Assembly (NCBI RefSeq): GCF_001677475.2
Contig: NZ_CP015229.1
Length of the DNA stretch: 64,000 nucleotides
From: Escherichia coli
GTDB taxonomy: Bacteria > Pseudomonadota > Gammaproteobacteria > Enterobacterales > Enterobacteriaceae
Reading direction: 5' to 3' (one strand)
Shown in pieces: positions 24,001-27,000 of the stretch (positions are counted from its first letter, which is position 1; each line of letters starts with the position of its first letter). Position numbers: made by a program.

Positions 24001-27000
24001 GATACGTCCTACCGCCGGGAACGCATTTTTGCGACCGGCCCAGAAACGTACGCGCTCTGCTTCGTCCTGTGCCAGACGGACGTCAGTCGCGCCCGCTTTC
24101 AGCAAGATGTCGTTAACCCGCTCGCAGTCTTCCTGTACGTCAGACTCCACGCCGTCCAGCTCGCACAACAAAATCGCTTCGGCGTCGACGGGATAACCGG
24201 CATGAATAAAATCTTCCGCCGCGCGGATCGACAGGTTATCCATCATCTCCAGCCCGCCGGGGATAATGCCATTGGCGATGATGTCACCGACGGCGAGTCC
24301 GGCTTTTTCTACCGAGTCAAAGCTGGCTAACAGAACCCGCGCCACGGGCGGCTTCGGCAACAGCTTCACCGTTACTTCGGTGGTCACGCCGAGCATACCT
24401 TCCGATCCGGTGAACAGCGCCAGCAGGTCAAAACCAGGCGAATCCAGCGCGTCCGATCCCAGCGTCAGCGCCTCGCCGTCCAGCGTTTGCACTTCAATTT
24501 TCAGCAGGTTATGTACGGTCAGACCATATTTCAGGCAGTGGACGCCACCGGCATTTTCCGCCACATTGCCGCCAATTGAACAGGCGATTTGTGAGGAAGG
24601 ATCCGGCGCGTAATAGAGATTATGCGGCGCAACGGCCTGGGAGATCGCCAGGTTACGCACGCCCGGCTGCACGCGCGCGCGGCGACCAACGGGGTTAATG
24701 TCGAGGATTTCTTTAAAGCGCGCCATCACCAACAACACACCTTTTTCCAGCGGCAGCGCGCCACCAGAAAGCCCGGTGCCTGCACCACGGGTCACCACCG
24801 GTACACGCAGGCGGTGGCAGACAGCCAGAATCGCTGTCACCTGTTCCATTTGCTTAGGCAGAACAACCAGTAATGGACGCGTGCGATACGCGCTCAACCC
24901 GTCACACTCGTAAGGAATGATCTCCTCATCGGTATGCAGGATCTCCAGTCCAGGGGCATGCTCACGCAGTGCCATCAGTACCGATGTGCGGTCGACATCG
25001 GGTAAAGCGCCATCAAGACGCTCTTCGTACAAGATGCTCATGAGTAGGCTTCGCTTTGTTGTTTTGTGTGGCAGCTGATTTTTGCGCGCTGCTTCTGTGA
25101 ACAGTTATTAAGCGGGCTTTTTGTTTTCGTCTATCTCTTTAGCTACCGGTCAGACCATTTTTTTTTCCAGCTCTGTGACCTTGCATTGGTTAACTTAATG
25201 TTAAATTGATGTAACATAATCACTTACGTGATGTGCGTGTTTTGCGAATTAAGAACAGAAAAATTGGTCCTACCTGTGCACGAGGTCCGGGAATGAAAGA
25301 TGAGCGTCGCCCTATTTGCGAAGTGGTTGCAGAGAGTATCGAACGGTTAATTATCGACGGCGTACTGAAGGTCGGTCAGCCGCTTCCCTCGGAACGTCGA
25401 CTGTGTGAAAAGCTCGGCTTCTCACGCTCCGCACTGCGTGAAGGGCTGACCGTGCTGCGCGGGCGCGGGATTATTGAAACGGCGCAGGGTCGCGATTCTC
25501 GTGTCGCACGGCTTAATCGGGTGCAGGACACCAGCCCGCTAATTCATCTGTTCAGCACGCAGCCGCGAACGCTGTACGATCTGCTCGACGTTCGCGCATT
25601 GCTGGAGGGTGAATCGGCAAGGCTTGCGGCAACGCTGGGAACCCAGGCTGATTTTGTTGTGATAACCCGCTGTTATGAAAAAATGCTCGCCGCCAGTGAG
25701 AACAACAAAGAGATTTCGCTGATCGAACATGCGCAGTTGGATCACGCTTTCCATCTCGCCATTTGTCAGGCTTCTCACAATCAGGTGTTGGTGTTTACGC
25801 TGCAATCATTGACCGATCTGATGTTTAATTCAGTGTTTGCCAGCGTAAATAATCTCTACCATCGACCACAGCAAAAAAAGCAGATCGATCGCCAGCATGC
25901 GCGGATCTACAACGCGGTGTTGCAGCGGCTGCCGCACGTCGCCCAGCGCGCAGCACGCGATCATGTGCGGACCGTGAAAAAGAATCTCCACGATATCGAG
26001 CTGGAAGGCCACCATTTGATTCGCTCGGCGGTGCCGCTGGAGATGAACAAGGTGGGAATGTGAGCCGAGTTTTCACCCTCACCCTAACCCTTTCCCCGAG
26101 GGGCGAGGGATCGCCCCTGCGCTTAACAGGATCTGGTATTAAATTTGCTTTTCATACAATCGGTAACGCTTGTACGGCTCTGCCCCAATGCGTTCCAGCA
26201 TGTTATTCATGCCTGTATTGGTTTCGAGGATCCATGACATCTCCAGCGCATCGATCTTCCGGCGGGCAAACGGATCGCGTAAGGCTTCAATCAATAACAG
26301 CGCAATCACCGGGCCGATGCGGCTGAACTGATACTCGTCCCGCACGCCCATCAGCGGCACTCGCGCAGTTCGCACACCGCTGACTTTCAAACGCCACAGC
26401 AATTTTGCCCAGCCGAAGGGAAAGAGCGATCCGTTCAGATCGGCAATCGCCTCGTTGATGTTTGGCAAGCCGACAATAAACGCGCAGGGTGCAGAATCAA
26501 TCTCAGCGATGTAGATCATATCGTCCGGCACCAGGTATTTAAGCTGATCGCCCATGGTCGCGAATTCATGTTCGGTAAACGGCACAAATCCCCAGTTGTG
26601 CTGCCAGCCAGAGTTGAAAATCTCACGCAGGATCTGCATCTCTTCGGCAAACCGCTGACGATTGATGCAGCGAATGGTCACCTTTTTGCGCACCTGATCC
26701 ATCAGTTTTTTTAGCGCCGGAGAGAAAGTGAGATCGGTTCGCTGCATCCACCACGCCAGTAAATCAATGCCTTTGTGATAACCCAGTTGTTCAATATGCG
26801 CGGCATACCACGGTTTGCCGTGTGGCATCATCGCACAGGGTGGTGTGTCAAAACCTTCAATCAGTAATCCGCTTTCCTGATTGATATTCAGGCTGAAAGG
26901 CCCGCTGATCTTACTTGCACCTTGTGACTTCAACCACGCTTCCGCTGCGCCAAACAACGCGGCAAAAACCTGCGGCTCATCAATGGCGTCAATCATGCCG

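What the first reader, a model, noticed from the sequence alone, without database searches (positions are those of the whole stretch)
26063..26130. Two copies of a GC-rich palindromic intergenic repeat
The core ccctcaccctaaccct(c/t)tccccg(g)aggggcgaggg occurs after glcC (26063-26130) and between hybG and hybF (44300-44355) in the same orientation. Both copies seed small spurious ORFs translating as TLTLSP(R/E)G. It resembles the boxC family of E. coli intergenic repeats, but I cannot confirm the family without a database. The 44.3-kb copy lies inside the hyb operon where a structured RNA element could affect hybG expression.
Basis: seen in the sequence. Interest (0 to 1): 0.35.

Follow-up and report, generated by a model that had tools for sequence, protein, structure and literature searches.

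The report
Two BoxC (triplex-motif) repeat insertions
The two GC-rich repeats are copies of a long-known E. coli non-coding repeat (BoxC, also called PIT or TMECO); the family is ordinary, but both copies are rare, strain-specific insertions, one of them between two genes of the hydrogenase-2 operon.

Summary
The window has exactly two related copies, at 26064-26138 and 44298-44382, in the same orientation and far more alike than chance allows. The reverse complement of the hyb copy fits the published TMECO consensus exactly and equals K-12 copy no. 23. The glcC copy has one mismatch in the middle block. A profile built from ten K-12 copies finds only these two sites in the window.

New here: K-12 and most E. 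coli lack both copies. The hyb site is occupied in 19 of 5421 complete genomes and the glcC site in 186 of 4544. At hyb, 121 bp were added to a 12-nt hybF-hybG spacer, flanked by a 5-bp direct repeat (TTATT) that contains the hybF stop codon. Salmonella, Citrobacter and Intestinirhabdus have short spacers without the repeat, so this is a gain. The glcC copy replaces 10 bp and changes the GlcC C-terminus (…NLS* to …NKVGM*).

I found no terminator pattern, promoter pattern, Rfam family or protein family. The two ORFs are spurious. The family is already known and no function has been established for it. Interest is low to moderate.

The parts
26076..26109 (-). Core of the glcC/yghO BoxC copy. Read on the minus strand it is CCCTCGCCC-CTCG-GGGAAAGGG-TTA-GGGTGAGGG. 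It is type A (TTA second loop) and degenerate: the middle block is GGGAAAGGG instead of GGGNGAGGG.
   Evidence: consensus; nhmmer E=1.6e-10, aligned 26067-26141.
26049..26133 (.). An 85-bp segment that takes the place of 10 bp (ctgagttagc) in K-12. It carries the BoxC copy, the last four codons of GlcC (K V G M) and its stop codon in this allele.
   Evidence: alignment with K-12, O145 and ECSC054 empty alleles; occupied in 186 of 4544 genomes; glcC annotated 771 nt against 765 nt in K-12.
26100..26117 (.). A perfect 7-bp palindrome, GGGGCGA-GGGA-TCGCCCC, specific to the glcC copy and overlapping the first block. It dominates the predicted fold of this copy.
44311..44346 (-). The 36-nt core of the hyb BoxC copy. 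Read on the minus strand, which is the sense strand of the hyb operon, it is CCCTCGCCCCTCCGGGGAGAGGGTTAGGGTGAGGGG. This is identical to K-12 TMECO no. 23 (type A mm).
44298..44382 (.). The part of the hyb insert shared with other BoxC copies: the core, about 13 nt on the left and about 36 nt on the right. The closest paralog is the fimH-gntP copy, at about 85% identity over 82-84 nt.
   Evidence: nhmmer E=9.4e-19.
44267..44297 (.). A 31-bp left part of the hyb insert that has no paralog anywhere. Its origin is unknown; it could be filler or donor flank.
   Evidence: matches only at this locus, in the 19 genomes; no hits in the metagenome scan, plasmids or phages.
44262..44266 (.). Left copy of the 5-bp direct repeat TTATT that flanks the insert, on the hybG-proximal side.
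   Evidence: K-12 has a single TTATT at the empty site.
44383..44387 (.). Right copy of the direct repeat TTATT. It contains the hybF stop codon (TAA on the minus strand, 44383-44385).

Best explanation
Both sites are copies of the dispersed, non-coding BoxC repeat of E. coli, also published as PIT and TMECO; both are type A. The conserved core has three blocks: one C-rich block and two G-rich blocks. As single-stranded DNA, the G-rich strand can form a hairpin plus a third strand (an intrastrand purine-motif triplex). This was shown in vitro by others for 'type A mm' cores, the class to which the hyb core belongs. As RNA, only a hairpin is possible. In this window both copies are derived, lineage-restricted insertions rather than conserved parts of the locus. 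One filled the 6-bp gap between the convergent genes glcC and yghO and rewrote the last codons of glcC. The other entered the 12-nt hybF-hybG spacer with a 5-bp duplication that regenerates the hybF stop codon and leaves the hybG ribosome-binding site intact. The most likely reading (inference) is that they are tolerated, essentially neutral structural DNA with no dedicated function at these two loci. They would have been acquired by a short-homology or target-duplicating insertion event whose enzymology is unknown.
For: Identity: the hyb copy fits the published consensus exactly and equals K-12 no. 23. A profile of 10 K-12 copies hits only these two window sites, at E=9e-19 and 2e-10. There are 16-19 places per genome in 5418-5425 of 5426 E. 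coli genomes. Derived state: K-12 has empty sites. The hyb site is occupied in 19 of 5421 genomes and the glcC site in 186 of 4544. The 19 occupied genomes share identical junctions, which points to one event. Salmonella, Citrobacter and Intestinirhabdus have 27-30-nt hybF-hybG spacers without the repeat. Direct repeats: TTATT flanks the hyb insert, and an 8-bp AACCGTGT flanks the polymorphic 92-bp pstA-pstB copy of K-12. No function signal: no promoter- or terminator-like pattern at either copy and no Rfam family. Fold energies are only 1-2 sd better than shuffles. The literature reports no promoter or terminator activity and no stable triplex in vivo.
Against: Neutrality is inferred, not tested. 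K-12 also carries copies inside operons (pstA-pstB, yihS-yihR), so an effect on mRNA is possible. The three-block core recurs in very distant bacteria with different flanks, which suggests that something selects for or generates this structure. The insertion mechanism is unknown. The direct repeats differ in length (5 against 8 bp). The glcC event is a replacement rather than a clean insertion. The 31-bp left part of the hyb insert has no known source.
Confidence: 0.8

Rival explanations
1. The hyb copy is a cis-acting RNA structure in the hyb mRNA. A stable hairpin between the hybF stop and the hybG ribosome-binding site would uncouple translation, attenuate read-through, or protect the upstream mRNA from 3' exonucleases. 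This would change the HybG:HybF ratio.
For: The copy lies within the operon. The sense RNA of the 82-nt unit folds at -33.8 kcal/mol, pairing the C block with the distal G block. The spacer grows from 12 to 133 nt. K-12 has similar copies inside the pst and yih operons.
Against: No intrinsic-terminator pattern was found. The fold z-scores are only -1.4 to -1.9. The hybG Shine-Dalgarno sequence is not sequestered in the predicted fold. The copy is present in only 0.35% of genomes, so it cannot be part of normal hyb regulation. Copies inside operons occur in both orientations: G-rich in hyb mRNA and C-rich in pst mRNA. PIT elements showed no terminator or promoter activity in published tests.
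Confidence: 0.12
2. BoxC is an active non-autonomous mobile element (MITE-like, or mobilised through its hairpin as REP elements are by a RAYT-type enzyme). Both window copies would then be recent transpositions.
For: Two clean presence/absence polymorphisms are flanked by short direct repeats, with a single repeat copy at the empty site (hyb; pst). Outgroups polarise the hyb event as a gain. Occupancy per locus varies widely, from 0.35% to at least 84%.
Against: The direct repeats differ in length (5 against 8 bp), unlike the fixed target duplications of one transposase. There are no general terminal inverted repeats: 10 of 13 copies tested have z below 2, and the hyb copy reaches z=2.1. The hyb insert is not a copy of any other E. 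coli locus; its best paralog is 85% identical and 31 bp are unique. The glcC and adk-hemH differences are replacements. The repeat is essentially absent from phages. Direct repeats around a hairpin are equally the signature of slippage deletion.
Confidence: 0.15
3. The DNA itself is the active agent. Transient triplex or hairpin formation stalls replication or repair and makes the neighbourhood unstable. This is the 'genomic instability' role proposed by Holder et al.
For: Published in vitro triplex data and the published excess of intergenic variability around TMECO loci. In my data, every locus I checked is polymorphic in the population, often with replacements rather than clean indels. Four SNP sites fall within the 116-bp hyb insert and none in the 120 bp of flanks across the variants sampled.
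Against: In vivo DMS footprinting in the same paper did not support a stable triplex. A variable neighbourhood can be a consequence of where insertions are tolerated rather than an effect of the motif. The SNP counts here are tiny.
Confidence: 0.25
4. The similarity is chance GC-rich low complexity, or the sites are copies of another family (REP/BIME, ERIC/IRU, RSA), or they encode small proteins.
For: The sequence is GC-rich and low in complexity. ORFs of 78 and 88 aa start within or next to both copies.
Against: The alignment score is 71 against a maximum of 29 in 2000 shuffles, and the sites are profile hits at E=1e-10 to 1e-18. The window's REP-type match (naRNA4) lies elsewhere, at 43910-43985. 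The ORFs are antisense to yghO and hybF and match no protein family.
Confidence: 0.01

Closest known systems
BoxC / PIT (potential intrastrand triplex) / TMECO repeats of E. coli (Holder et al. 2015, PMC4666352; listed as BoxC in Petrillo et al. 2008, PMC2267715)
   Same: The three-block core is the same: the hyb copy is identical to K-12 copy no. 23, and both copies are type A with a TTA loop. The flanking arms resemble those of K-12 copies. The location is intergenic. The element is present in many copies per genome and is present or absent depending on strain.
   Different: These two loci are empty in K-12 and are not among its 23 listed copies. The glcC copy fails the strict published pattern by one base. 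The hyb copy carries 31 extra bp of unknown origin. It sits in a spacer that is only 12 nt in other E. coli.
REP/BIME elements (mobilised by RAYT enzymes)
   Same: Short, GC-rich, hairpin-forming intergenic repeats, often found at the 3' ends of genes and between convergent genes. Some lie inside operons.
   Different: The sequence is different, and there is a third block with no counterpart in REP. No associated transposase is known. The window's REP-type match is at a different place (43910-43985).
Bacterial MITEs (e.g. ERIC/IRU, RU-1/2/3)
   Same: A small non-coding insertion flanked by a short direct repeat, with an empty site in related strains.
   Different: There are no terminal inverted repeats. 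The direct-repeat length is not constant (5 against 8 bp). No parent insertion sequence is known.
H-DNA and other triplex-forming mirror repeats
   Same: Purine- and pyrimidine-rich blocks that can form a three-stranded structure. Published work associates them with local instability.
   Different: Here the triplex is proposed within one single strand (a hairpin plus a third block), not by folding back a duplex. In vivo formation has not been shown.

Membership tests
BoxC / PIT / TMECO | Core matches the published consensus 5'-CCCTCNCCC N3-6 GGGNGAGGG N3 GGGNGAGGG-3' (hyb copy) | tested here: met
   Minus strand 44311-44346 reads CCCTCGCCCCTCCGGGGAGAGGGTTAGGGTGAGGGG. This is an exact fit and is identical to Table 1 no. 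23.
BoxC / PIT / TMECO | Core matches the published consensus (glcC copy) | tested here: not met
   The minus strand reads CCCTCGCCC-CTCG-GGGAAAGGG-TTA-GGGTGAGGG. The middle block has A where the consensus requires G, giving two mismatches in the block 1/block 2 stem where the published rule allows one. It is a degenerate copy. It is accepted as a family member on the profile evidence in the next row.
BoxC / PIT / TMECO | Sequence similarity to accepted K-12 copies, including the arms outside the core | tested here: met
   nhmmer with a profile of 10 K-12 copies gives 44304-44369 at E=9.4e-19 and 26067-26141 at E=1.6e-10, with no other hit in the 64 kb. Alignment shown.
BoxC / PIT / TMECO | Dispersed in many copies in E. 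coli chromosomes, in intergenic positions | tested here: met
   Median of 19 places (67-nt query) or 16 places (116-nt query) per genome, in 5418-5425 of 5426 genomes. Both window copies are intergenic.
BoxC / PIT / TMECO | The G-rich strand folds into an intrastrand triplex as single-stranded DNA | not testable with these tools
   Nearest-neighbour folding predicts only hairpins (-8.6 kcal/mol, with two alternative pairings). CD and NMR evidence exists in the literature for type A mm cores.
BoxC / PIT / TMECO | Match to the original 56-bp box C consensus (Bergler 1992; Bachellier 1999) | not tested
   The consensus text is not in the paper library. Indirect support: the K-12 copy next to fabI (envM), where I recall box C was first named, is one of the ten copies in my profile. 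Holder et al. equate BoxC with TMECO.
REP/BIME | REP consensus hairpin | tested here: not met
   The Rfam REP-derived model naRNA4 hits 43910-43985 and neither repeat site. The relaxed Rfam search shows nothing relevant at either site.
MITE | Terminal inverted repeats | tested here: not met
   Comparing left and right flanks as inverted repeats gives z below 2 in 10 of 13 copies tested; the other three, including the hyb copy at z=2.1 (4% of shuffles do as well), reach only 2.0-2.1.
MITE | Target-site duplication of fixed length | tested here: inconclusive
   Direct repeats flank both clean indels, but their lengths are 5 bp (hyb) and 8 bp (pstA-pstB). The glcC event has none.
Intrinsic terminator | GC-rich stem-loop followed by a T run | tested here: not met
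   No terminator-like site overlaps either copy.

The most novel reading that the evidence does not exclude
BoxC elements may still be inserting in natural E. coli populations by an unrecognised mechanism that duplicates a few target bases. The hyb copy would then be one dated example. It is a single gain, shared by 19 of 5421 complete genomes. It regenerates the hybF stop codon and puts a stable structure in front of hybG, measurably changing hydrogenase-2 maturation in those strains.
Probability: 0.15. Interest if true: 0.5.

Novelty: already known. Interest (0 to 1): 0.22.

Why it matters
It matters little for the family, which has been described since the 1990s and was characterised biophysically in 2015. 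The modest added value has three parts. First, there is a clean, polarised example of BoxC gain. Published work left open whether presence/absence differences reflect insertion or deletion. Here the outgroups, the 0.35% occupancy and the identical junctions all point to one insertion into a 12-nt operon spacer. Second, short direct repeats flank two clean indels, which constrains the possible mechanisms. Third, there is a practical annotation point. These repeats seed spurious ORFs (..LTLTLSP.G..), can alter real gene ends (the GlcC C-terminus), and are not annotated in RefSeq records.

Tried and rejected
1. Scan of 100,044 species genomes with the TMECO pattern. It showed wide distribution but could not give the E. 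coli copy set, so I fetched ten K-12 copies by coordinate instead.

2. MITE hypothesis. I looked for terminal inverted repeats around 13 copies. There was no general signal, so I rejected it.

3. Source of the 31-bp left part of the hyb insert. I searched E. coli genomes, plasmids, phages and the metagenome collection with an exact 30-mer. Nothing turned up outside the hyb locus, so the origin is unresolved.

4. Rfam at gathering and relaxed thresholds. The only result was a sub-threshold Antizyme_FSE match (24 bits against a cut-off of 40), which I dismissed as chance.

5. Terminator and promoter scans. Nothing overlapped either copy.

6. Protein-coding reading of the ORFs. No family matched.

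7. Search for a target duplication at the glcC site. The event is a 10-bp-to-85-bp replacement, and the empty alleles themselves differ between lineages, so no clean junction could be defined.

8. Further K-12 loci, checked for clean empty sites. The adk-hemH alternative allele is a replacement, and the zntA-tusA 'alternative' still holds the repeat. Neither was informative about direct repeats.

9. Holder et al. supplement, searched for hybG, hybF, glcC and yghO. There were no gene names in the held text, so I could not tell whether these loci are among their 63 TMECO loci.
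Full report
**1. What is there**

The window is E. coli DNA from the glc-hyb region, corresponding to K-12 NC_000913.3 at about 3.10-3.16 Mb. The exact 16-mer CCCTCACCCTAACCCT occurs at 26076-26091 and 44312-44327, both on the + strand, and nowhere else even with 3 mismatches allowed. The two intergenic segments align over about 56 columns with a score of 71. Two thousand shuffles gave 14.5 +/- 2.2 with a maximum of 29.

Copy 1 fills the 75-nt gap between the stop codons of the convergent genes glcC (26061-26063) and yghO (26139-26141). Copy 2 lies in the 133-nt spacer between the hybF stop (44383-44385) and the hybG start (44247-44249), both on the minus strand.

They run antisense to yghO and hybF and match no protein family.

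**2. Family**

Holder et al. 2015 (PMC4666352) state that the BoxC repeat of the 1990s, the PIT element of 2000 and their TMECO motif are the same thing. They give the consensus 5'-CCCTCNCCC N3-6 GGGNGAGGG N3 GGGNGAGGG-3' and list the 23 K-12 copies.

On the minus strand the hyb copy reads CCCTCGCCCCTCCGGGGAGAGGGTTAGGGTGAGGGG. That is an exact fit and is identical to K-12 copy no. 23, classed 'type A mm'. The glcC copy reads CCCTCGCCC-CTCG-GGGAAAGGG-TTA-GGGTGAGGG. It is type A with one base off in the middle block, so a strict pattern search would miss it.

I fetched ten solo type-A K-12 copies. Their loci are fimH/gntP, yjdP/phnP, yihS/yihR, pstA/pstB, zntA/tusA, frlR/yhfS, aaeR/tldD, fabI/ycjD, adk/hemH and tauD/hemB. 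The alignment shows similarity beyond the core: about 10 nt on one side and 25-36 nt on the other. A profile of these ten copies finds exactly two sites in the window, 44304-44369 (E=9.4e-19) and 26067-26141 (E=1.6e-10).

The element has a median of 16-19 places per genome in 5418-5425 of 5426 complete E. coli genomes. Petrillo et al. 2008 (PMC2267715) list BoxC as a known E. coli family with 22-32 copies. Membership is therefore established for the hyb copy. The glcC copy qualifies as a degenerate member.

**3. Both copies are rare, derived insertions**

Neither locus is in the K-12 list, and K-12 has empty sites.

*The hyb site.*
- K-12 reads ..aactccggTTATTcaacttc.., giving a 12-nt spacer.
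- The window reads ..aactccggTTATT[116 bp]TTATTcaacttc...
- The duplicated 5 bp contain the hybF stop codon. The insertion therefore regenerates the stop and leaves the hybG Shine-Dalgarno sequence (GGAG) next to hybG.
- Only 19 of 5421 complete genomes carry the insert; the others show the 130-bp empty configuration.
- The variants sampled from the 19 have identical junctions and differ only by SNPs at 44310, 44313, 44365 and 44367. That pattern indicates one event followed by divergence.
- Salmonella, Citrobacter and Intestinirhabdus have 27-30-nt hybF-hybG spacers with no repeat. The long spacer is therefore a gain, not the ancestral state.

*The glcC site.*
- Here 85 bp (26049-26133) replace 10 bp of K-12.
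- The GlcC C-terminus changes from ..EMNLS* to ..EMNKVGM*, and RefSeq annotates 256 aa instead of 254 aa.
- The site is occupied in 186 of 4544 genomes.
- The empty alleles themselves differ between lineages, and no clean junction or duplication can be defined.
- Over window 25000-45500, no complete genome exceeds 98.0% identity. The best-matching genomes carry the hyb insert, but their matched spans are about 75 bp shorter than the query, which fits an empty glcC site. None appears to carry both copies.

**4. Anatomy of the hyb insert and the question of mobility**

Only 44298-44379 has paralogs, and the alignment runs to the end of my query, so I place the unit's end at 44382. The best paralog is the fimH-gntP copy, at about 85% identity. 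The left 31 bp (44267-44297) occur nowhere else in 5426 E. coli genomes, nor in the plasmid or phage collections, nor in a metagenome scan. The insert is therefore not a simple copy of another E. coli locus.

A test for terminal inverted repeats gave a weak signal for the hyb copy (z=2.1) and no general signal in the other copies. A classical MITE architecture is not supported.

To see whether flanking direct repeats are general, I examined the K-12 pstA-pstB copy. It is present in 2099 of 5425 genomes. The empty allele differs by a clean 92-bp indel flanked by an 8-bp direct repeat, AACCGTGT. A third copy of that 8-mer lies inside the element, right after the core.

Both clean indels thus have flanking direct repeats, but of 5 and 8 bp. 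That fits microhomology-guided insertion or slippage deletion better than a single transposase with a fixed stagger. At hyb the outgroups decide for insertion; at pst the direction is open.

Other K-12 loci gave mixed results. The adk-hemH site is 54% occupied and its alternative allele is a replacement. The zntA-tusA site is at least 84% occupied. This agrees with the published finding that TMECO neighbourhoods are unusually variable.

**5. Function**

- No promoter-like or terminator-like pattern overlaps either copy.
- No Rfam family matches. The only relaxed-threshold hit is a sub-threshold Antizyme_FSE match, which I take as chance.
- As RNA in the hyb sense orientation, the 82-nt unit folds at -33.8 kcal/mol. 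The C block pairs with the distal G block through a G-U pair, but the z-score is only -1.9.
- As ssDNA, the 36-mer hairpin is -8.6 kcal/mol, with two competing pairings. Triplexes cannot be predicted with these tools.
- The glcC copy has acquired its own perfect palindrome, GGGGCGA-GGGA-TCGCCCC, at 26100-26117.
- The literature reports a very stable intrastrand triplex in vitro, no stable triplex in vivo by DMS footprinting, no promoter or terminator activity, and an association with local sequence variability.

My best reading is that both copies are tolerated, essentially neutral insertions of a structural repeat. An effect on hybG expression is possible: translational coupling over 12 nt is replaced by a 133-nt structured spacer. 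But it cannot be part of normal hyb regulation, because 99.65% of genomes lack the insert.

**6. Wider distribution**

The same three-block core occurs in distant bacteria, with lineage-specific loops and tails. Examples are dozens of copies in Mitsuaria chitosanitabida, copies in a Methylomirabilota MAG, and copies in Contendobacter. It also occurs on large replicons of Rhizobium, Sinorhizobium, Azospirillum, Klebsiella and others in the plasmid collection. It is essentially absent from phages. Holder et al. already reported it in more than 260 genomes.

**7. Verdict**

The kind is already known and has no established function. What is new is small. Both copies are rare derived alleles. The hyb copy is a well-polarised gain with a 5-bp duplication inside an operon. 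The glcC copy alters a real protein's C-terminus. Interest is low to moderate.

Noticed in passing
window 43910-43985 (+): An Rfam naRNA4 (REP-derived nucleoid-associated RNA) match at 70.2 bits, just downstream of hybG. This means a REP/BIME cluster lies next to the BoxC-bearing spacer. In strain N3 an IS621 (IS110-family) transposase gene sits in the same yghU-hybG gap (L002 18604-19584).
   Followed up: partly
window 18377-18598 (+) and 60697-60760 (+): Full-length Rfam matches to the sRNAs C0719 (282.7 bits) and ES173 (95.4 bits).
   Followed up: no
window ~26139-38000, compared with L001 (K-12) and L002 (strain N3): The best-matching genomes carry an intact gene block between yghO and yghS. 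It encodes a fatty acyl-AMP ligase, an epimerase, an ACP, serine palmitoyltransferase (spt), LptF/LptG-like permeases and an LPS-biosynthesis protein. In K-12 this block is replaced by an IS5 and a truncated yghO/yghQ. I read this from the annotations of matching genomes and did not re-annotate the window itself.
   Followed up: partly
window 25000-45500: No complete RefSeq E. coli genome (of 5,426) is more than 98.0% identical over this 20.5 kb, and none appears to carry both BoxC copies. The window seems to come from a lineage not represented among the complete genomes, or from a mosaic of alleles.
   Followed up: partly
L126 (K-12 pstA-pstB, NC_000913.3 ~3,908,400-3,908,560): The K-12 BoxC copy inside the pst operon is a presence/absence polymorphism, present in 2099 of 5425 genomes. 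It is a clean 92-bp indel flanked by the 8-bp direct repeat AACCGTGT, with a third copy of the 8-mer immediately after the core inside the element.
   Followed up: yes
L003-L122 (Mitsuaria chitosanitabida, Methylomirabilota MAG, Contendobacter): The TMECO three-block core is abundant in very distant bacteria, each with its own loop and tail. In Mitsuaria the loop is GCTTGC and the 3' tail is TCTTCGGG. Copies often occur as closely spaced inverted pairs. The flanks are not shared with E. coli. This raises the question of whether the core spreads or arises convergently.
   Followed up: partly
window 26100-26117: The glcC copy has a perfect 7-bp palindrome (GGGGCGA GGGA TCGCCCC) that the hyb and K-12 copies lack. 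It arose from changes in the right arm and replaces the usual block 1/block 2 hairpin in the predicted fold.
   Followed up: partly
window 44310, 44313, 44365, 44367: Among the variants sampled from the 19 genomes with the hyb insert, four SNP sites fall within the 116-bp insert and none in the 120 bp of flanking coding sequence examined. One of them (44313, strain E9) breaks a core block. The numbers are small, but they fit relaxed constraint or raised mutability of the repeat.
   Followed up: partly
window 44306-44362 (+): A sub-threshold Rfam match to the eukaryotic Antizyme frameshift element (24.1 bits; gathering score 40; E=0.003 for a 251-nt search). I regard it as a chance match to a GC-rich hairpin.
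   Followed up: yes
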